A DNA stretch of 37,691 bases from a virus (taxonomy: Duplodnaviria > Heunggongvirae > Uroviricota > Caudoviricetes), in the IMG/VR virus record IMGVR_UViG_2751185969_000015, positions 1-37,691 of that record. The stretch is one strand, 5' to 3'. Positions within the stretch are counted from its first letter, which is position 1; each line of letters begins with the position of its first letter. This document shows, in pieces, positions 2,498 to 31,741 of this stretch. The position numbers and the translations under genes are program-made. The notes beneath the pieces were generated by a model. That model was not told the DNA's origin. It saw only the letters and a list, made by a program, of their open reading frames with translations, and searched no databases.

Positions 2498-2719
2498 TTA
2501 GTTATCAAAAAGTCCGTACGTTTCTTCTTCTTCAGGTGTAAGGGGAAGAATCTCTACTCTATCTATAGATACCTTTTCAATGTACCCATGAGGTCTACTT
2601 AAAATTAAAGCTCTCTCATGCCACAGAACTCCAAGAATGTGATACCTCCCAGCATCGCCTTTTACCCTGGCTCTTCCTTTGATTCTTGGCGACATAATGC
2701 CATATTTTTTCTTTGCCAT
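2498..2719 (-). CDS. Hypothetical 73-aa basic protein, last gene of the RHH/Bro-N operon
   Basis: ORF MAKKKYGIMSPRIKGRARVKGDAGRYHILGVLWHERALILSRPHGYIEK...; its ATG overlaps the stop of the upstream gene. No family recognised. Confidence 0.5.
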   Translation of the reverse strand: MAKKKYGIMSPRIKGRARVKGDAGRYHILGVLWHERALILSRPHGYIEKVSIDRVEILPLTPEEEETYGLFDN

Positions 2720-3447
2720 TATGCAACATTACTCCCATGAATCAGGTGTTGTAGTGCTTTAACACCTTCCGCATTGTAGCGGAATACTTCCACCTGTTTG
2801 CTGGAATGCGCAGATTTATCCAGGAAGAACTTACCGTACTGCTCAGTTTTGAGGTTGTTTGCGTTAGCAATGCGACCAATCTTGTTGGCCGTTACTCCAA
2901 GCTGCTCTGCAACCTCCCCTGCTGAGTAGTAATGCTCTTCTATTGCTGGAAGAGGTATTGCATTAAAACCAACGATCGGGTTGATTATGCTTGCTGCCGC
3001 AGTCTGCTTTGCTTCCGGCGCAAGATTTGGCATCAAATCGAACAGATTGGTAACAGCTTCAACCGTCATTTTCAATGTTCGCGCCTGGCGATACTCAACA
3101 AGTCCACTCGACGATTTACCGCTTTTAATGTGCGCTTCTTGCATACTTTCAAGTTGGTCTACAAGTGAGCGGCGAACAGCTTTAGATTCACGAGCAGCCA
3201 CTCGAAGGGCTTGCTTAATTGACATAACAACTTTTTCAGAAGTTGTCTTGTTTGATTTTTGAACTACGAAAATTTCGTAGTGCTCACCTTCAAGTTCATC
3301 CTTAATGCGTGCAATAAAGTCGTTATTTCGGACTTCTTTTTCCCCGCACTGTCTACGAGCATGATTGACCATCTCTAACAGGTACTGGCTATCAATGGTT
3401 TTATCCGTGACAACGGATCCGATGTTTGCTACATTCTTAAAAGTCAT
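2719..3447 (-). CDS. Antirepressor-like protein (KilAC / P22-AR-C type C-terminal domain)
   Basis: Start taken at internal ATG 3445-3447 (MTFKNVANIG...) with an AAGGA RBS. C-terminal segment YYSAGEVAEQLGVTANKIGRIANANNLKTEQYGKFFLDKSAHSSKQVEVFRYNAEGV resembles phage antirepressor C-terminal domains. Assignment from motif recall only. Confidence 0.5.
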   Translation of the reverse strand: MTFKNVANIGSVVTDKTIDSQYLLEMVNHARRQCGEKEVRNNDFIARIKDELEGEHYEIFVVQKSNKTTSEKVVMSIKQALRVAARESKAVRRSLVDQLESMQEAHIKSGKSSSGLVEYRQARTLKMTVEAVTNLFDLMPNLAPEAKQTAAASIINPIVGFNAIPLPAIEEHYYSAGEVAEQLGVTANKIGRIANANNLKTEQYGKFFLDKSAHSSKQVEVFRYNAEGVKALQHLIHGSNVA

Positions 3448-3535
3448 TAGGCATTCCTTATGTGGTAGTAAGGGTGTGACATAGGCCGCCAGCAGCACAC
3501 TGGCGGTTTTCTTTTTGCGCAGTCCGGCGCACCAA

Positions 3536-4162
3536 TCAATGAATCCATTCCTCGCCGCGAAGTTTTGCCAGCATTGGCTGAGCGTTCTTTACGACAAAAT
3601 TGTTGGTATCAAGATTCTTCATTTCACGAAGAAGTGATTTCTTGGTTTCTTCTGACATGTAGCGAGTCTCATATGCAATATCGTAAATCCTTCCTGAAAG
3701 CTCAGAACCAATTTGCTTCATTCCTGGGTAGATGTGTTTGCACGTTTGTTGACTCTTCTCCATCCACAATTGTAAGTAGCAGAGATTAACCAGTTCTTCG
3801 TCAGTAAACTGTTTTGCAATCGGTGAGCATTCTGCCTGCCGATCCAAAATATCCAGCACCCAGCGGCGGAACTCTTTGGCTACCGGAGTGCGAGCAAACA
3901 TCGCGATTAGGTGGGCACCGCGTAGTGAGAAAACTCGCACTTTTTTGCGATAATTTCCTGAGGTACTCACTTCGAGTACCTGAGTCATTCCGGCGCTAAA
4001 CTCATCGCTATACTTGTTATAAATCATTGTTACTGCACGACTATTTGCGTATTTAAGTGCAGATGCAATATTAGATGATGTAAACCAAACACCATGCATA
4101 TCACGGGTGGGCACCAACTCAACTCCGTGGAAGTTGTAATCTGATTTTGCTACAATACTCAT
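3536..4162 (-). CDS. Bro-N domain protein (putative antirepressor)
   Basis: Start at ATG 4160-4162 (MSIVAKSDYNFHGVELV...) with an AAGGAAA RBS. Clear Bro-N signature: ...WFTSSNIASALKYAN...RVFSLRGAHLIAMFARTPVAKEFRRWVLDIL. Confidence 0.7.
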   Translation of the reverse strand: MSIVAKSDYNFHGVELVPTRDMHGVWFTSSNIASALKYANSRAVTMIYNKYSDEFSAGMTQVLEVSTSGNYRKKVRVFSLRGAHLIAMFARTPVAKEFRRWVLDILDRQAECSPIAKQFTDEELVNLCYLQLWMEKSQQTCKHIYPGMKQIGSELSGRIYDIAYETRYMSEETKKSLLREMKNLDTNNFVVKNAQPMLAKLRGEEWIH

Positions 4163-26735: not shown

Positions 26736-27631
26736 AAATCCACCCCGTAAATCCAGTCAGTGTTTGTCAGGTCGAGTTTTGGTTTGCAGGCTGTCACACC
26801 TGCCTGTTGCTTGTTACGGTTGATTTCGAGCTGGGTCCACTTGTCGCGGAGTTTGGCCGGGCTCAGCACGTTACCGGACCAGAAGTTGTCCTGGCATGCC
26901 CAGCGGAACAGTACACACATGTCGCGATGGTTACGTCCGTCACGTTCACGCATCAGGCGGATATCGTTAGCCCACCCTGCAAAATTCGGTTTTCTGGCTG
27001 ATGGCGCGATGGTCTTCACCATGTCAAACATCCATTCTGCGGCGGTCAGGTCTTCTGCTGTCCCCCACTTGCTGCCGCTCTGAATTGCAGCATCCGGTTT
27101 CACCACAGAAAGGTCGTTTTCTGGCTGGTCAGAGGATTCGCCAGAATTCTCTGACGAATAATCTTTTCTTTTTTCTTTTGTAATAGTGTCTTTTGTGTCC
27201 CCCTGTTTTGAGGGATAGCAATCCCCCAATTTGAGGGATGTTTTATCCCTCGTTTTAGGGGATTTTCCCTCGTTTTGAGGGATACACCATTCTGAGATGT
27301 TTTTATTTGGTCCAAACATGCCGCCTTGCTGCTTGATAATATTCATTCTGACGAGTTCTAACTTGGCTTCATTGCACCGTTTGACGGGTAACTTTGTAAT
27401 CTCGCTAAGTTGAGAATCGGTGATTCTGTCCATTGGTTTATTCCATCCATAGGTTTTACGCAGAATGGCAAGCAGCACTTTAAACTGTCGCTTGGTCAGA
27501 TCTGCGCCTGAATAAGCCTCAAGCAGCATATTTGATAGTCTGGCGTAACCATCATCGAGATCTGCCACATTACGCTCCTGTTTGGCAAAGTTACCTCTGC
27601 AGAAGTTGAGTATTTTTGCTGTATTTGTCAT
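26732..27631 (-). CDS. O: Replication initiator O
   Basis: MTNTAKILNFCRGNFAKQERNVADLDDGYARLSNMLLEAYSGADLTKRQFKVLLAILRKTYGWNKPMDRITDSQL... matches lambda O; contains the ori iterons. Confidence 0.9.
   Translation of the reverse strand: MTNTAKILNFCRGNFAKQERNVADLDDGYARLSNMLLEAYSGADLTKRQFKVLLAILRKTYGWNKPMDRITDSQLSEITKLPVKRCNEAKLELVRMNIIKQQGGMFGPNKNISEWCIPQNEGKSPKTRDKTSLKLGDCYPSKQGDTKDTITKEKRKDYSSENSGESSDQPENDLSVVKPDAAIQSGSKWGTAEDLTAAEWMFDMVKTIAPSARKPNFAGWANDIRLMRERDGRNHRDMCVLFRWACQDNFWSGNVLSPAKLRDKWTQLEINRNKQQAGVTACKPKLDLTNTDWIYGVDL
27197..27286. repeat. ori-lambda: four iterons inside the O gene, with adjacent AT-rich region
   Basis: Four approximately 18-bp repeats of the type CCCTCAAAACGAGGG (plus-strand forms CCCCTGTTTTGAGGGA, CCCCCAATTTGAGGGA, CCCTCGTTTTAGGGGA, CCCTCGTTTTGAGGGA), flanked at 27150-27185 by an A/T-rich tract. 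Confidence 0.85.
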
Positions 27632-27663
27632 AATGACTCCTGTGGATTGATCCAGTAATGACC

Positions 27664-27960
27664 TCAGAATTCCATCTGGATTTGTTCAGAACGCTCAGTT
27701 GCCGCCGGGCGTTTTTTATTGGTGAGTCCATCAAGCGCATACTTAAAAGCCCTGCTAATCGGACTGATGTCTGATGCCATTCCGAAAGCACACAAGACCG
27801 AAGCAATAAATCTCCAGTCCGTTCTGCTTATCTTCGATTCATGACAGCCAATCATCTTTGCCAGACCGCGCTGGGTAATAGCTGACAGATTGATAAGTAA
27901 ATCTGTTTCTGCGCGATCAACGTCACGCTGTGATAGTTTGCTGTAACTTGTTCTTTCCAT
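27664..27960 (-). CDS. cII: CII-like transcriptional activator (hybrid: lambda-type C-terminus, divergent N-terminus)
   Basis: C-terminus ...LTNKKRPAATERSEQIQMEF matches lambda CII; the N-terminal 75 aa differ. Located between cro and O. Confidence 0.75.
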   Translation of the reverse strand: MERTSYSKLSQRDVDRAETDLLINLSAITQRGLAKMIGCHESKISRTDWRFIASVLCAFGMASDISPISRAFKYALDGLTNKKRPAATERSEQIQMEF

Positions 27961-28045
27961 TTCTTAAGATTTCCAATAGTGAATAGTTAGTTGAAAGGTA
28001 TGCGTGGAAACGCATATGGCCTTAGTTGGTCAGATATCTTGGAAC

Positions 28046-28092
28046 TCGCTTTTCAGCGACGTAGGACGAATGTCCGTTGTTACAAAGAGCGG
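28046..28092 (-). promoter_or_regulatory. nutR candidate (boxA plus boxB)
   Basis: On the minus strand, downstream of cro: boxA-like CGCTCTTTGTAA (28081-28092), then about 20 nt later a hairpin TCGCU-GAAA-AGCGA (28046-28059). Its core matches the nutL hairpin. Confidence 0.55.
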
Positions 28093-28101
28093 ATCCGCTT
28101 A

Positions 28102-28317
28102 TTAAGCGGCTTTGTGTTCCGGCGGGAACACGTCATCAAGACTGACTTTTGCGCCTAACTTGTTTAGGCACGCAACAAGAGCACGGCATGTTTTAAGGTC
28201 TGGGAAGCGACGACCAGATTCCCAATGTCCGATAGCTCCCTGTGTGCATCCAACTGCCTTAGCAAGTGTTGTTTGAGAGATATTCAGTGACTCTCGATAT
28301 TTTCGTAGGTTGCTCAT
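28102..28317 (-). CDS. cro: Cro-like repressor (XRE-family HTH)
   Basis: Start at internal ATG (28315-28317) with GGAGGG RBS: MSNLRKYRESLNISQTTLAKAVGCTQGAIGHWESGRRFPDLKTCRALVACLNKLGAKVSLDDVF... Divergent from cI. Confidence 0.75.
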   Translation of the reverse strand: MSNLRKYRESLNISQTTLAKAVGCTQGAIGHWESGRRFPDLKTCRALVACLNKLGAKVSLDDVFPPEHKAA

Positions 28318-28434
28318 ATGCCCTCCATAGTAAACACGAATAAAAAAATACAATATGTACTTTGCGAATACAAGTAAAAATACACATTGTGCATGGATGG
28401 TTCCAGTACAGAGCGTAATAATAAGGACATGAAA
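28318..28434. promoter_or_regulatory. cro-cI intergenic control region (OR with PR/PRM)
   Basis: 117-bp AT-rich spacer between divergent cro and cI. Contains TACA...TGTA-type near-palindromes (for example TACAATATGTA), similar to motifs in the PL region. Confidence 0.6.
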
Positions 28435-29088
28435 ATGAAATGGTATGAACTGGCTAGATCCAGAATGAAAGAGCTCGGCATAACTCAAGAGAAGTTAGCC
28501 GAAGAGCTAGGTATGACGCAGGGTGGGATTGGACACTGGTTGCGCGGATCTCGTCATCCATCTCTTAGTGATATTGGTGTGGTGTTTAAATACCTTGGTA
28601 TTGATAACATATCATTCAACCACGACGGGACATTTTCACCTGTTGGCGAATACTCATCGGCCCCAGTTAAAAAACAATATGAGTACCCTGTATTTTCTCA
28701 TGTTCAGGCTGGGATGTTCTCTCCAGAACTCAGAACCTTTACCAAAGGCGATGCGGAGAGATTGGTAAGCACAACCAAAAAAGCCAGTGACTCTGCATTC
28801 TGGCTTGAGGTTGAAGGTAACTCAATGACCGCACCAACAGGTTCCAAACCCAGCTTTCCTGACGGGATGTTAATTCTGGTTGACCCTGAGCAAGCTGTTG
28901 AGCCCGGCGATTTCTGCATAGCCAGACTTGGTGGTGATGAATTTACCTTCAAGAAACTGATCAGGGATAGCGGTCAGGTGTTTCTACAGCCACTAAACCC
29001 ACAATACCCAATGATCCCATGCAATGAGAGTTGTTCCGTTGTGGGGAAAGTTATCGCCAGCCAATGGCCTGAAGAGACGTTTGGGTGA
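28435..29088 (+). CDS. cI: CI repressor (hybrid: novel N-terminal HTH domain, lambda-type C-terminal S24 domain)
   Basis: C-terminal roughly 130 aa match lambda CI ([135 protein letters not shown]), including catalytic Ser and Lys. The N-terminal domain ([42 protein letters not shown]...) is unrelated to lambda CI. Start chosen at the second ATG (28435) for RBS spacing. Confidence 0.85.
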
Positions 29089-29127
29089 TGAAACCACTTT
29101 TATCTACAATTTACAGGGCGGTAAACA

Positions 29128-29685
29128 TTGGCAAAAATAGATGATTATCAGCCAAGCCAAGTAGAAGTTGATAAAGTACTTTATTGTAAAAAAATAGTTA
29201 ACTTTTCTGGCGTTAAATGGAAACAGAAACCAAGTCGCTCTGATATGTGGCTACAAGCCCATATCATCCCCTTGGATGAGGATTGTATACCTATACAAGG
29301 GCTAAAGTTTGAACTGAAATGGAAACCAGATCAGGATTCAGAACCTGATGACCCGATTTCTTACCCTAAAATAAATATTATTGCTTTCTATCATAACAAG
29401 AGGGTTTTCGCGGTAGATACCTATCACTTTGACAAACACACGAATAGTTACAAGGTCGATCATCCGAAGTACCAAGATATCATTTACGGTGCTCACTACC
29501 ATGTATACTATGAAGAAGCTGGATACTATAGTGATAGAATAGCGTTTCCAATCGAAGATGACATAAACCCAGATGACCTGGTAGGGTATTGGAATTACTT
29601 CTGTAAACATCTGAACATAACTTACTCTGGGAGAATACCTTTACCGCTTGAAGATGAGTCGGGGCAAATGGGGTTTGGAATATGA
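29128..29685 (+). CDS. Hypothetical protein A of the cI-linked two-gene cassette (TTG start predicted)
   Basis: 185-aa ORF (MAKIDDYQPSQVEVDKVLYCKKIVNFSGVKWKQ...YHVYYEEAGYYSDRIAFPIEDDINPDDLVGYWNYF...), AT-rich. Starts 40 nt after the cI stop with no intervening terminator. Tyr/His/Asp-rich; no family recognised. Confidence 0.55.
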   Translation: MAKIDDYQPSQVEVDKVLYCKKIVNFSGVKWKQKPSRSDMWLQAHIIPLDEDCIPIQGLKFELKWKPDQDSEPDDPISYPKINIIAFYHNKRVFAVDTYHFDKHTNSYKVDHPKYQDIIYGAHYHVYYEEAGYYSDRIAFPIEDDINPDDLVGYWNYFCKHLNITYSGRIPLPLEDESGQMGFGI

Positions 29686-30434
29686 TGTGCTCAACAGTGA
29701 TCTCACAACTAGGTTTCGAATGCCATCCAATAGGCAAGACCTTGAGAATTATCAGTCCATTCACTTACTGTGATGATGGAGAGCATGTCGGTGCCTTTAT
29801 CCGTGAAGTCAATGGTAGGTATTTAGTTAGTGACAGATGCGATGCCTTAATGAATATGGAGGCAAGAGGGATCTCGCTTACCAAAAAACGACTTGATGAG
29901 ATACGACAATTACTGCTTAAAGAAGGCGCAGAACTCAATGCTCGAGGAGAAATCATTGCTTGGGCAACAGAAAAGGATGTCGGTGCGATTACATCGAACA
30001 TAATTAGAGCTGGTATACTCGCATCAACTTTGTCGTTAGACTGGTATCAGCCAGTTCAAGCTGAAAAGTTTGAAAGTATGGTTATTGATTATCTATATCA
30101 CACAGAGCTTAGAGACGCACTTTCTCTTCGTGAAAACGTATATGGCTTGAGTGGACATCAAATTACCGTCCCTGTAACAATAAAAACCGACATACCTAAA
30201 TACGTTTTTACATCAAGCGTGAAACACGGAGGAAGCTGGAATAGTGCTTACTCATTGCTTGGGAAACTAATTGATCTTAAAGCTTCAAGTGAGGAGTATA
30301 ACAACAGATTTGTTGTTATAGACAGCGAAGCAATTGGTGATCAAATGCAACAACTCTCCTTACTCTTCCATGAATCAAGCCAAGTTCTACCATTCTCCAA
30401 AAGAGAGACTTGGGTTAAGAGACTTGCAGCATAA
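29682..30434 (+). CDS. Hypothetical protein B of the cI-linked two-gene cassette
   Basis: 250-aa ORF whose ATG overlaps the stop of protein A (ATGA); AT-rich; no family recognised; followed by a strong terminator. Confidence 0.6.
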   Translation: MMCSTVISQLGFECHPIGKTLRIISPFTYCDDGEHVGAFIREVNGRYLVSDRCDALMNMEARGISLTKKRLDEIRQLLLKEGAELNARGEIIAWATEKDVGAITSNIIRAGILASTLSLDWYQPVQAEKFESMVIDYLYHTELRDALSLRENVYGLSGHQITVPVTIKTDIPKYVFTSSVKHGGSWNSAYSLLGKLIDLKASSEEYNNRFVVIDSEAIGDQMQQLSLLFHESSQVLPFSKRETWVKRLAA

Positions 30435-30439
30435 TACAA

Positions 30440-30465
30440 CCCGGCCTCAGCGCCGGGTTTTCTTT
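30440..30465 (+). terminator. Rho-independent terminator closing the cI operon
   Basis: Perfect hairpin CCCGGC-ctcagc-GCCGGG followed by TTTTCTTT. Confidence 0.8.
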
Positions 30466-30638
30466 GCCTCACGTTCGCCCACCTAAAAACACATAACCAA
30501 TTATATTTATTGAAAAATAAATAGATGCAACCCACTAAACCACGCAATTCTGATCTCTCCTTACATCGCCGAGGCAATACATCCACGCTAAAAAACAACA
30601 CTATTAAATACAAAGCGTTATAAAAAACCACGCCAACT

Positions 30639-30681
30639 TACAACAAATTGTATTGATCTTGTAAAGTACATATCGTACTAT
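30639..30681 (+). promoter_or_regulatory. PL-like early leftward promoter with OL-like operators
   Basis: TTGATC (30653-30658), 17-bp spacer, TACTAT (30676-30681). Overlapping palindromes TACAACAAATTGTA (30639-30652) and TTGTAaagTACAA share half-sites with the cro-cI region. Confidence 0.55.
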
Positions 30682-30726
30682 TTAACCGTCAGCAGGACGC
30701 TGGAAGCCAAATGGAACAGACTGGCA

Positions 30727-30772
30727 GGCTCTTTAAACAACGTCGACTCTCGACTACGTGGCTGAAAAGCCA
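30727..30772 (+). promoter_or_regulatory. nutL candidate (boxA plus boxB)
   Basis: boxA GGCTCTTTAAACAA (30727-30740), then a hairpin TGGCU-GAAA-AGCCA (30759-30772), upstream of N. Confidence 0.6.
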
Positions 30773-30870
30773 GATCACCCAACCACATAAGCTGTGGGAT
30801 GCAATGCCGAAGCAACCGTCTCAGGAGGAGCTTCGAGATTGCATCGCCAAAGTTTATTCGGGAGGAATCC

Positions 30871-31143
30871 ATGTCCAGAAAAACAGAATTTAAAGGCACC
30901 GCAGCTTCTCGCCGTAGAGCTCGTCGCGCAAATCTGCAAAGTCAGGAGGCGATCAGCTCCGACAAGCTACACAGGCCAACCCCTTCACGAGTGGTCTTGC
31001 AATGCAAGCTCAAACCAGCAATGAGAGCAGAAGTGATAACTCTGACAACGTTGACCAGAAAATATGAAGGTTCAACTTGTCTTCCGAACGTAGCTCTTTA
31101 CGCGGCAGGCTACCGGAAATCAAAACAACTGACGGCGAGATGA
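30871..31143 (+). CDS. N: Antiterminator N (P22 gp24-like)
   Basis: Start at ATG 30871 with GGAGG RBS. Arginine-rich motif near the N-terminus (TAASRRRARRANLQ). C-terminus ...LPNVALYAAGYRKSKQLTAR matches P22 gp24 as I recall it. Confidence 0.8.
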   Translation: MSRKTEFKGTAASRRRARRANLQSQEAISSDKLHRPTPSRVVLQCKLKPAMRAEVITLTTLTRKYEGSTCLPNVALYAAGYRKSKQLTAR

Positions 31144-31159
31144 TAAATTCATTTGCTAA

Positions 31160-31741
31160 TTACTTGTTTTTGCCATGCTTATCCTGAGCGATAAGTTCAT
31201 CCATAAGGCTGTCTGCCTTCCCGGCAAACCTAATGTAGCACTCATGTCTATAGCTTTCAGGGATAACGAAACGGTCGGTATCAGGATATCCAACAGCAGG
31301 AGGCCTTCGAACGAGGAGTCCTTTTTTGAGCAATGAAATTGATTCATGAGCGCCCTTTTCCGTTTGTAGCTGGTTATTAGCGGCTACAGCGAATGCCAAA
31401 TACGCTCTTTCTCCAAGAGTTAACGAATCAAACAAATCTTGCACATATTTTTCTTCTTTAGATTTGCGCTTCTGAGCAGCGAATACCTCAATTCTTTCAG
31501 TCACAGCGTGATAAGCGGAATTAACAACGCCGTTAAGCACATAGCTAACGCAAAACAACAGGATGTAATACATCCAGTAATGAGGAAGGATTTCTGGATT
31601 ATGCAGGTTTATCCATTCTTTTACGCTTACCGGCATAACAATAATCAATATGATCAGGATGATTAGCATATGAATCAACTGTTTAAGTGTCATTCCTTGC
31701 AGGAAAAAATGCATTAGTTCCTGCCACCATGAGTTGTTCAT
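31160..31741 (-). CDS. sieB: Superinfection exclusion protein B (SieB)-like membrane protein
   Basis: MNNSWWQELMHFFLQGMTLKQLIHMLIILIILIIVMPVSVKEWINLHNPEILPHYWMYYILLFCVSYVLNG..., which I recall as the lambdoid SieB sequence; two N-terminal TM helices; on the strand opposite to N. Confidence 0.65.
   Translation of the reverse strand: MNNSWWQELMHFFLQGMTLKQLIHMLIILIILIIVMPVSVKEWINLHNPEILPHYWMYYILLFCVSYVLNGVVNSAYHAVTERIEVFAAQKRKSKEEKYVQDLFDSLTLGERAYLAFAVAANNQLQTEKGAHESISLLKKGLLVRRPPAVGYPDTDRFVIPESYRHECYIRFAGKADSLMDELIAQDKHGKNK

What the first reader, a model, noticed from the sequence alone, without database searches (positions are those of the whole stretch)
29128..30434. Uncharacterised AT-rich two-gene cassette in the rexAB position downstream of cI: candidate lysogen-expressed defence system
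Seen in sequence: two overlapping ORFs (185 aa and 250 aa, ATGA overlap) begin 40 nt after the cI stop on the same strand, with no terminator in between and a strong hairpin plus T-run terminator immediately after them (30440-30465). They are visibly more AT-rich than the flanking cI and N regions. Established knowledge: in lambda this slot holds rexA-rexB, which are co-transcribed with cI from PRM in lysogens and exclude other phages; in other lambdoid phages the same slot is a hotspot for exclusion genes. Inference: neither protein shows RexA/RexB features or any motif I recognise (no Walker motif, no transmembrane segments). Protein A is Tyr/His/Asp-rich. This is therefore a candidate previously undescribed abortive-infection or exclusion system expressed from the prophage.
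Basis: partly seen in the sequence, partly recalled or inferred. Interest (0 to 1): 0.85.

Follow-up and report, generated by a model that had tools for sequence, protein, structure and literature searches.

The report
Untested two-gene defence candidate after cI
Right after the repressor gene of this temperate phage sits a mobile, promoter-less two-gene cassette that is very probably a prophage-expressed anti-phage system; it is common in well-known E. coli strains and was flagged by prediction tools, and I found no experimental test of it in the literature I could read.

Summary
Two overlapping ORFs, A (29128-29685, 185 aa, TTG start) and B (29682-30434, 250 aa), follow cI by 39 nt with no terminator between. 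A strong terminator follows at 30438-30465, and the cassette is the most AT-rich stretch of the window.

The proteins are not featureless. B combines a DUF1828 domain (type-III-chaperone/YbjN-like fold) with a DUF1829 domain (PD-(D/E)xK fold, but no conserved canonical triad). A is a β-rich protein with no structural relative, an invariant D..HxN..HxH signature and a conserved flexible tail. It relates weakly to DUF6978.

The pair matches PADLOC candidate PDC-M24A/B distantly. The exact proteins are listed as "predicted novel defense gene" in the DefensePredictor supplement (Science 2026) but were not among the units tested there.

In 95 of 95 loci A and B are adjacent. In 93 of 95 they lie directly 3' of a repressor gene, across five unrelated repressor families, and the same holds in a Pseudomonas phage. 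DNA homology runs from A's start codon to just past the terminator, so the unit has no promoter of its own.

About 5.5% of complete E. coli genomes carry it, including Nissle 1917, UTI89, ATCC 25922 and O104:H4.

Verdict: a well-supported but unproven defence candidate with an unknown mechanism.

The parts
28393..29088 (+). cI-type repressor (HTH_3 + Peptidase_S24). Its promoter(s), the PRM/PRE equivalents, are inferred to drive the cassette.
   Evidence: Pfam S24 1.3e-28 and HTH_3 2.1e-10. RefSeq 'LexA family protein' at the equivalent Nissle coordinates. Longest ORF is 28387-29088.
29089..29127 (+). 39-nt cI-A spacer with a purine-rich RBS-like AGGGCGG and no terminator.
   Evidence: No terminator-like site. 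Fold -4.8 kcal/mol, z -0.77. Sequence.
29128..29685 (+). Gene A, 185 aa, TTG start. A β-rich protein with no structural relative. Invariant K22 W31 R92 D97 H104 N106 H123 H125 W155 F158 N163 P173 Q180. Conserved but disordered C-terminal tail. Distantly DUF6978 / PDC-M24A-like.
29682..30434 (+). Gene B, 250 aa. N-terminal DUF1828 domain (type-III-secretion-chaperone/YbjN-like fold) and C-terminal DUF1829 domain (PD-(D/E)xK fold) without a conserved canonical catalytic triad.
30438..30465 (+). Intrinsic terminator that closes the repressor-A-B transcription unit (analogue of the λ immunity-region terminator). It travels with the cassette.
   Evidence: -14.6 kcal/mol, z -3.59. DNA homology with diverged cassettes extends to 30461-30469.
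29122..30469 (+). Extent of the exchangeable module: A, B and the terminator, with no upstream promoter region. Inner recombination joints lie at about 29171 and about 30402 in allelic replacements.
   Evidence: blastn of the window against 100 loci.

Best explanation
A and B form a two-protein, cytoplasmic anti-phage (superinfection-defence) system. It is carried as a promoter-less, terminator-capped cassette that is transcribed as a 3' extension of the prophage repressor mRNA, so it is made whenever the prophage is repressed (from the PRM equivalent) and during establishment (from the PRE equivalent).

Shown: the anatomy, the obligatory A-B pairing, the obligatory position 3' of unrelated repressors, the module boundaries, the domain folds, and the conserved residues.

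Inferred mechanism, in decreasing confidence:
(1) The two proteins are made in coupled amounts (ATGA overlap) and act as a complex.
(2) A's conserved, flexible C-terminal tail (P173...SGQxG[FL]) docks into B's chaperone-like DUF1828 domain, a fold that typically binds extended peptides. This keeps the system silent.
(3) Infection by a heterologous phage perturbs the complex. The trigger is unknown.
(4) The active component then attacks nucleic acid and stops phage development, possibly at the cost of the cell.

On which protein is the enzyme: the invariant D97/H104/N106/H123/H125 cluster survives to 22% identity in A, while B's nuclease-fold domain lacks a conserved D..(D/E)xK triad. I therefore lean to A as the metal-dependent effector and B as the sensor or DNA-binding regulator. 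This is analogous to the DUF1829 protein DS-6B, which partners the HipA-like kinase in HipAD. The reverse assignment, with B as the nuclease and A as the sensor, remains plausible.
For: Slot and transcription unit: the order is cI - 39 nt - A - ATGA - B - terminator - N.

Both proteins hit the two components of one PADLOC candidate system: PDC-M24A at 4.8e-4 and PDC-M24B at 4.7e-10. Distant family members repeat these hits.

DefensePredictor (PMC13092281) lists exactly WP_000968518.1 (log-odds 5.64) and WP_001062368.1 (4.90; 5.42 in Table S10) as 'Predicted novel defense gene', above the paper's strict cutoff of 4. The same study validated DS-34, a cI-plus-downstream-gene unit, and implicated DUF1829 in defence.

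Pairing holds in 95 of 95 loci. A repressor lies directly upstream on the same strand in 93 of 95 loci, across five mutually dissimilar repressor families. The same arrangement occurs in a Pseudomonas D3-like phage at 29.5% identity.

The module begins at A's start codon and ends after the terminator. The core has been replaced by a 51%-identical allele within 96-97%-identical flanks, and the same cassette is found behind a replaced cI.

The cassette has low GC. Both genes are under purifying selection, with A evolving faster.

Folds come, and conserved residues.

Indirect expression evidence: in the related icd-integrated prophage NC-SV, the two genes in this slot are the most strongly lysogen-specific transcripts, above the repressor itself.
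Against: There is no experimental evidence of any kind for this cassette. It was not among the 118 units tested by DefensePredictor, where the authors report a precision of 45% at a log-odds cutoff of 0.

The PDC-M24A and DUF6978 matches of A are weak and partial, below Pfam's gathering score. PDC-M24 itself is only a candidate.

B's canonical nuclease residues are not conserved: K173 and D214 are lost in the Pseudomonas homologue. A has no detectable relative of known activity.

The A-B complex, the tail docking and the spatial clustering of A's conserved residues are inferences, because I had no model coordinates and no multimer prediction.

Co-transcription with cI is inferred from sequence only. 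I did not show that the NC-SV slot genes are A/B homologues.

The position next to the repressor is also compatible with a role in the lysis-lysogeny switch.
Confidence: 0.6

Rival explanations
1. The cassette modulates the prophage's own lysis-lysogeny switch or induction, as recently shown for λ RexA, rather than acting on other phages. B's nuclease-fold domain would bind DNA near the operators, and A would tune it.
For: The cassette is strictly linked to repressor genes of many types. B's PD-(D/E)xK fold lacks a conserved catalytic triad, which suggests binding rather than cutting. RexA in the same slot is reported to be a DNA-binding protein that biases the switch (titles and abstracts of PMC11077077 and bioRxiv 10.1101/2021.04.19.439022, listed).
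Against: The cassette works behind five unrelated repressor/operator systems and is swapped independently of them. That is hard to reconcile with operator-specific regulation. Defence-specific predictors flag both genes.
Confidence: 0.12
2. A-B is a toxin-antitoxin-like addiction module whose main role is to stabilise the prophage (post-segregational killing), with no direct anti-phage role.
For: It is a small, overlapping two-gene operon of cytoplasmic proteins. One partner looks enzymatic and the other has a chaperone-like binding domain. The DUF1829 protein DS-6B is proposed to be an antitoxin-like partner.
Against: An integrated prophage has little need for segregational stabilisation. No B relative was found on any of 72,556 plasmids. 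Many TA-like modules are themselves defence systems, so this rival overlaps with the main explanation.
Confidence: 0.1
3. The cassette serves the phage's own infection cycle. It would be expressed from the PRE-type promoter early after infection, for example as an anti-defence or DNA-processing function, and its lysogenic expression is incidental.
For: In λ-type circuits, genes downstream of cI are also transcribed from PRE during establishment (established λ biology, not tested here). The nuclease fold could act on host or competitor DNA.
Against: The terminator-capped placement behind the maintenance repressor, rather than in the PL or PR early operons, is typical of lysogenic-conversion genes. 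The cassette is retained in the defective Nissle prophage, whose left arm is cut by an IS3-family element (ISEc52) and whose integrase is truncated. This argues for benefit to the host rather than to the lytic cycle.
Confidence: 0.08
4. The cassette is a host-fitness or virulence moron unrelated to phages. It is enriched in B2/ExPEC and O104:H4 lineages.
For: It is present in UTI89, APEC O1, NU14, Nissle, ATCC 25922 and O104:H4 strains.
Against: The proteins are cytoplasmic, with no signal peptide-like or TM segment. The family spans Salmonella, Yersinia, Klebsiella, Aeromonas, insect symbionts and Pseudomonas phages, always in the immunity region. That fits a phage-centred function better than a host-niche one.
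Confidence: 0.05

Closest known systems
λ RexA/RexB
   Same: Identical genomic slot and inferred regulation: two genes immediately downstream of cI on the same strand, closed by a terminator before PL/N. Both are lysogen-expressed exclusion functions (established λ biology).
   Different: There is no sequence or family relationship: no Rex hit in PADLOC, Pfam or PHROGs. RexB is a polytopic membrane protein, whereas A and B have no TM segment. The folds are different.
PADLOC candidate system PDC-M24 (components A and B)
   Same: It is a two-gene system whose two HMM families are hit by A and B respectively. B aligns over its full length (4.7e-10). The gene order, small protein first and DUF1828 protein second, is the same in the window.
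   Different: PDC-M24 is a candidate without an experimental test (my knowledge of PADLOC's 'PDC' class). A matches only 56 of 148 profile positions at E 4.8e-4. The enterobacterial cassette is a divergent branch tied to prophage repressors.
DS-6 / HipAD component DS-6B (DUF3037 + DUF1829), DefensePredictor 2026
   Same: It shares the DUF1829 (PDDEXK-clan) domain in the non-kinase partner of a validated two-gene defence system. That partner is proposed to bind its partner protein and DNA.
   Different: DS-6B carries DUF3037 instead of DUF1828, and its partner is a HipA-like kinase, not a DUF6978-like protein.
DS-34 ('CITO': cI + downstream hypothetical), BstA of BTP1, Stk of 933W, Nun of HK022, SieB
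   Same: The principle is the same: defence or exclusion genes ride on, or sit beside, the prophage repressor transcription unit. DS-34 is and the BstA paper appears. The others are from my own knowledge. SieB is encoded next door at 31160-31741.
   Different: All are single proteins of unrelated families. None has the DUF6978-like + DUF1828/DUF1829 architecture.
Type III secretion chaperones / YbjN-like proteins and PD-(D/E)xK restriction endonucleases (fold level only)
   Different: Sequence identity is 5-13%. No secretion context exists. The canonical D..(D/E)xK residues are not conserved in B.

Membership tests
RexAB (λ) | Homology to RexA and RexB | tested here: not met
   No Rex family hit in PADLOC, Pfam, PHROGs or NCBIfam.
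RexAB (λ) | RexB-type polytopic membrane protein | tested here: not met
   The maximum 19-aa Kyte-Doolittle score is 0.45 for A and 1.19 for B, against 3.03 for SieB.
RexAB (λ) | Two genes directly downstream of cI, same strand, terminated before PL/N | tested here: met
RexAB (λ) | Co-transcription with cI in lysogens | not testable with these tools
   This is inferred only, from the absence of a terminator or promoter region and from the module boundaries. Indirect slot-expression data come from NC-SV.
PADLOC PDC-M24 | Protein matching the PDC-M24B profile | tested here: met
   E 4.7e-10, residues 2-249 on profile positions 4-254 of 256. The Pseudomonas homologue scores 3.5e-5.
PADLOC PDC-M24 | Adjacent protein matching the PDC-M24A profile | tested here: inconclusive
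   E 4.8e-4, covering only residues 104-163. Similar weak hits occur in 6 of 10 distant family members. The Pseudomonas A-like protein has no hit.
Pfam DUF1828 (PF08861) | Score above the gathering threshold | tested here: met
   33.5 bits against a cutoff of 22. Variant 2 scores 40.9 bits.
Pfam DUF1829 / PDDEXK clan | Sequence-profile match | tested here: inconclusive
   hmmscan of residues 125-250 finds nothing at E<=5. HHpred in the DefensePredictor supplement gives DUF1829 at 98.8% probability for residues 155-241.
Pfam DUF1829 / PDDEXK clan | Restriction-endonuclease-like αβββαβ core fold | tested here: met
Pfam DUF1829 / PDDEXK clan | Conserved catalytic D...(D/E)xK triad | tested here: not met
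   The conserved polar residues are S157, H159, T177, D198 and R209. K173 and D214 are lost in the Pseudomonas homologue, and no acidic-x-Lys motif is conserved on strand 3.
Pfam DUF6978 (PF22398) | Score above the gathering threshold | tested here: not met
   22.0 bits against a cutoff of 29.6, C-terminal third only. Scores are 12.5-23.6 bits in other variants. This is a distant relationship, not membership.
Toxin-antitoxin / abortive-infection system | Toxicity of one component, neutralisation by the other, growth collapse on infection | not testable with these tools
   Needs experiments.

The most novel reading that the evidence does not exclude
A-B is a mechanistically new class of prophage immunity. 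In this reading a novel-fold metalloenzyme (A, signature D..HxN..GxHxH) is held in check through its conserved C-terminal tail by a chaperone-like plus degenerate-nuclease-fold sensor (B). The system would be released by a phage cue and diversified by allelic replacement inside otherwise identical immunity regions. It would also explain part of the phage resistance of widely used strains such as Nissle 1917, UTI89 and ATCC 25922.
Probability: 0.25. Interest if true: 0.75.

Novelty: new variant of a known kind. Interest (0 to 1): 0.5.

Why it matters
If the cassette is active, it is a common immune system: about 5.5% of complete E. coli genomes carry it, and it also occurs in Salmonella, Klebsiella, Yersinia and Aeromonas prophages and in a Pseudomonas temperate phage (record PP083311). 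The carrier strains matter for phage therapy, probiotic engineering and pathogenesis work. They include Nissle 1917, UTI89, ATCC 25922, APEC O1 and the O104:H4 outbreak lineage.

The cassette pairs a protein of unknown fold with an unusual chaperone-like plus nuclease-fold protein, so its mechanism could be new. The promoter-less, terminator-capped module that always lands behind a repressor gene is also a clean example of how prophages plug cargo into the lysogeny transcript. That rule could be used to mine further systems.

Finally, the cassette is a confounder for published phenotypes attributed to neighbouring elements of these prophages, namely Nissle 'pr' and possibly NC-SV svsR.

Tried and rejected
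- Sequence searches of A and B, and of their profiles, against all PDB chains gave only artefacts: designed Kelch/ankyrin repeat proteins, a His-tag and enteropeptidase.
- The AlphaFold-DB Foldseek library was unavailable.
- NCBIfam gave nothing.
- The Rfam scan of 27500-31500 gave nothing real, so no known sRNA or riboswitch lies in the unit.
- Literature searches for DUF1828, DUF6978, PDC-M24 and the two WP accessions in main texts found no functional study.
- Brenes & Laub 2025 (Cell Host Microbe), the study most likely to have tested this slot, is not held. I could not exclude that it covers the cassette.
- I tried to link the highly expressed NC-SV slot genes to A/B but could not. NC-SV has a different immunity module, and I had no NC101 sequence.
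- The exhaustive profile search of A against 1.84 billion representatives gave only 20 hits, so the family is small and no annotated distant relative emerged.
- dN/dS could not be computed for most pairs because synonymous sites are saturated. Only pN and pS are reported.

Full report
OBSERVATION

The window carries a cI-type repressor gene (HTH_3 + Peptidase_S24; longest ORF 28387-29088, RefSeq-equivalent start 28393). Its stop codon is followed after 39 nt by ORF A (29128-29685, TTG start, 185 aa). ORF B (29682-30434, 250 aa) overlaps A by ATGA.

No terminator-like site lies between cI and A, and the spacer is unstructured (-4.8 kcal/mol, z -0.77). Four bases after B's stop comes a GC-rich hairpin (30438-30459, -14.6 kcal/mol, z -3.59) followed by a U-run. 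N follows at 30871-31143, and sieB lies on the other strand at 31160-31741.

The cassette is 39.6% GC against 47.2% for the window, the 0.7th percentile of equal-sized windows. Neither protein has a TM segment or a Walker motif.

BOTH ORFS ARE REAL, CONSERVED GENES

RefSeq annotates both ORFs (WP_001062368.1 'hypothetical protein' and WP_000968518.1 'DUF1828 domain-containing protein'). Homologues exist across Enterobacterales, Aeromonas and Thorsellia, down to about 47% identity for B and 59% for A. Against diverged cassettes, synonymous sites are saturated (pS 0.72-0.92) while pN is 0.10-0.34. A changes about 1.3-1.8 times faster than B.

WHAT THE PROTEINS ARE

B. Pfam places residues 26-110 in DUF1828, above threshold. 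An AlphaFold2 model (pLDDT 84) shows two α/β domains.
- This matches the HHpred annotation in the DefensePredictor supplement: DUF1828 at 99.5% and DUF1829 at 98.8%, clan PDDEXK.
- The canonical D..(D/E)xK triad is not conserved. The invariant polar residues of the C-domain are S157, H159, T177, D198 and R209, and K173 and D214 are lost in the Pseudomonas homologue.
- The N-domain keeps D32, D51, D54 and E90, plus two invariant cysteines (C3, C14).

A. The model is confident (pLDDT 82, pTM 0.81) and mostly β, with one helix.
- It has no sequence relative of solved structure.
- An exhaustive profile search of 1.84 billion representatives returns only 20 proteins.
- Across this family and a Pseudomonas homologue (22-46% identity), the invariant residues are K22, W31, R92, D97, H104, N106, H123, H125, W155, F158, N163, P173 and Q180, with an acidic residue 3-4 positions after H125.
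- The D..HxN..GxHxH(x)3-4[DE] pattern looks like a metal or active site.
- P173 and Q180 lie at the start of and within the C-terminal tail that AlphaFold leaves disordered (pLDDT below 50 for 175-185). That is typical of a docking peptide.
- A is weakly related to DUF6978 (22 bits, below the cutoff of 29.6), as are most variants.

LINKS TO DEFENCE

In PADLOC-DB, A hits PDC-M24A (4.8e-4, partial) and B hits PDC-M24B (4.7e-10, full length). These are the two components of one candidate system. Distant family members and the Pseudomonas B homologue repeat this pattern.

The DefensePredictor paper (PMC13092281) lists these exact proteins as 'Predicted novel defense gene', with log-odds 5.64 for B and 4.90 for A in an ECOR assembly, and 5.42-6.26 for the alleles in the 3,000-strain table. 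The paper's strict cutoff is 4. Neither accession nor 'DUF1828' occurs in Table S6, which lists the 118 units tested, so the cassette was predicted but not tested there.

The same paper validated DS-34, a unit made of cI plus the gene behind it. It also implicated DUF1829 in defence through DS-6B/HipAD.

I found no functional paper on DUF1828, DUF6978, PDC-M24 or the accessions. Brenes & Laub 2025 could not be read. Their temperate-phage panel includes two phages that carry this cassette, annotated 'hypothetical'.

SYNTENY

In Aeromonas, Thorsellia, Klebsiella, Salmonella and a second E. coli variant (51% identical B), the pair lies directly behind the repressor on the same strand.

A scan of IMG/VR added 80 loci. 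Over 95 loci, an A-family ORF overlaps B's start in 95 of 95. The next upstream gene on the same strand is an HTH repressor in 93 of 95. These repressors fall into five mutually dissimilar families, four S24-type and one short Rac-like type. The exceptions are an intervening DUF3024 gene and an unclassified 137-aa protein.

A Pseudomonas D3-like phage has a CI-like repressor, one extra gene, an unannotated A-like ORF, and B at 29.5% identity. The ATGA overlap and the motifs are retained. No B relative is found on plasmids.

MODULE STRUCTURE

DNA homology between the window and diverged cassettes behind unrelated repressors begins at 29122-29129 and ends at 30461-30469. That is from A's start codon to just past the terminator. 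The unit therefore brings its own terminator but no promoter region. This is the strongest sequence-level argument that it depends on the repressor's promoters.

In L010 and L095 the flanks are 96-97% identical to the window up to 29171 and from 30402 onward, but the core is the 51%-identical allele. In L036 the cassette is 95% identical but cI is replaced. Such allelic replacement and free re-assortment are typical of loci in an arms race.

The window itself has a P22-like structural backbone, whereas the identical immunity block sits in λ-like prophages.

DISTRIBUTION

Variant 1 is 99-100% identical in 241 of 5426 complete E. coli genomes. These include Nissle 1917, UTI89, APEC O1, NU14, ATCC 25922 and ATCC 11775. 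Variant 2 is in 61 more, including the O104:H4 lineage, and strain 13E0767 has both.

EXPRESSION

I have no direct data for this cassette. In the related icd-integrated prophage NC-SV, the two genes in this slot are the most lysogen-specific transcripts (logFC -11.7 and -11.1, against -9.8 for the repressor). NC-SV has a different immunity module, and I did not show that those genes are homologous to A/B.

MECHANISM (INFERENCE)

The most economical model is a cytoplasmic A-B complex, made from the repressor transcript, that is silent until a heterologous phage infects and then attacks nucleic acid.

I lean to A as the metal-dependent effector and B as the sensor or regulator. The chaperone-like domain would hold A's tail, and the degenerate nuclease fold would bind DNA, by analogy with DS-6B. 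The reverse assignment is possible.

Rival explanations are switch modulation, prophage addiction, an infection-cycle function and host fitness. All are less well supported but none is excluded.

VERDICT

This is a genuine, widespread, experimentally uncharacterised two-gene cassette in the rexAB slot, and very probably a defence system. It has already been flagged computationally, so it is not unnoticed. Its mechanism and one of its folds are unknown. It is a good, cheap experimental target of moderate interest.

Noticed in passing
window 27664-27960 (- strand); primer sites 27746-27763 and 27988-28005: The 'phage repressor (pr)' gene of E. coli Nissle 1917, reported to protect K-12 against λ and Stx phages (Bury et al. 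2018, PMC5987069), maps by its published primers to the CII-like ORF, not to cI. Its effect from a high-copy plasmid may therefore reflect forced lysogeny rather than repressor immunity. In that paper's table the cassette genes are EcN_1291 and EcN_1292, 'hypothetical'.
   Followed up: partly
NC101 prophage NC-SV (PMC12803456, S1 Data); equivalent slot to window 29128-30434: The two most lysogen-specific NC-SV transcripts are two adjacent hypothetical genes (GQ584_RS06840 and RS06845) next to the repressor. The paper attributes NC-SV's anti-phage phenotype to an sRNA at the 3' end of cI. The slot genes were not discussed and could contribute. Their homology to A/B was not established.
   Followed up: partly
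L096 (Pseudomonas phage VB_PaD_phPA-G, PP083311.1) 3420-4004 and 2680-3330: An unannotated A-family ORF lies in a 670-nt 'empty' gap just upstream of the B homologue. Between the CI-like repressor and this pair sits a 216-aa gene with a weak hit to another PADLOC candidate (PDC-S48, 3e-6), which suggests stacked cargo in the same slot.
   Followed up: partly
window 31160-31741 (- strand): A superinfection exclusion protein B (SieB) gene lies just beyond N, on the opposite strand. The immunity region therefore carries at least two separate exclusion or defence loci within 2.6 kb.
   Followed up: no
window 29171 and 30402 (joints); loci L010, L095, L036: Allelic replacement joints lie inside the cassette's conserved ends: the first ~15 codons of A and the last ~11 codons of B plus the terminator. 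These conserved ends may act as recombination anchors for swapping cassette alleles.
   Followed up: partly
E. coli 13E0767, NZ_CP020107.1 at 3516594-3517899 and 3181972-3183278: One genome carries both cassette variants (99.8% and 98.4% matches) at two places about 334 kb apart on the chromosome. This is compatible with non-redundant specificities.
   Followed up: no
window 13000-37691 as a whole: The structural and replication backbone is P22-like (CUS-3, Kapi1 and vB_EcoP-720R6 at 95-96% identity, at most 62% coverage). The identical cI-A-B-N block occurs in λ-like siphoviral prophages (Nissle, SF-468, PhiR57_1). No deposited phage covers the whole window.
   Followed up: partly
window 30350-30800: There is a strong strand-composition bias between the terminator and N (GC skew down to -0.40, AT skew up to +0.24). 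This is presumably the PL/operator/nutL region. It was not analysed.
   Followed up: no
L054 383-724: In one phage a DUF3024 gene is inserted directly upstream of the A-B pair, and the locus ends before any repressor could be seen.
   Followed up: no
S. aureus literature (PMC10821479, PMC13210130): In S. aureus a DUF1828 gene flanks a prophage integration site that often retains only an integrase remnant. A DUF6978 gene is listed next to an HTH gene. This hints that the wider family is also linked to prophages and repressors in Firmicutes.
   Followed up: no
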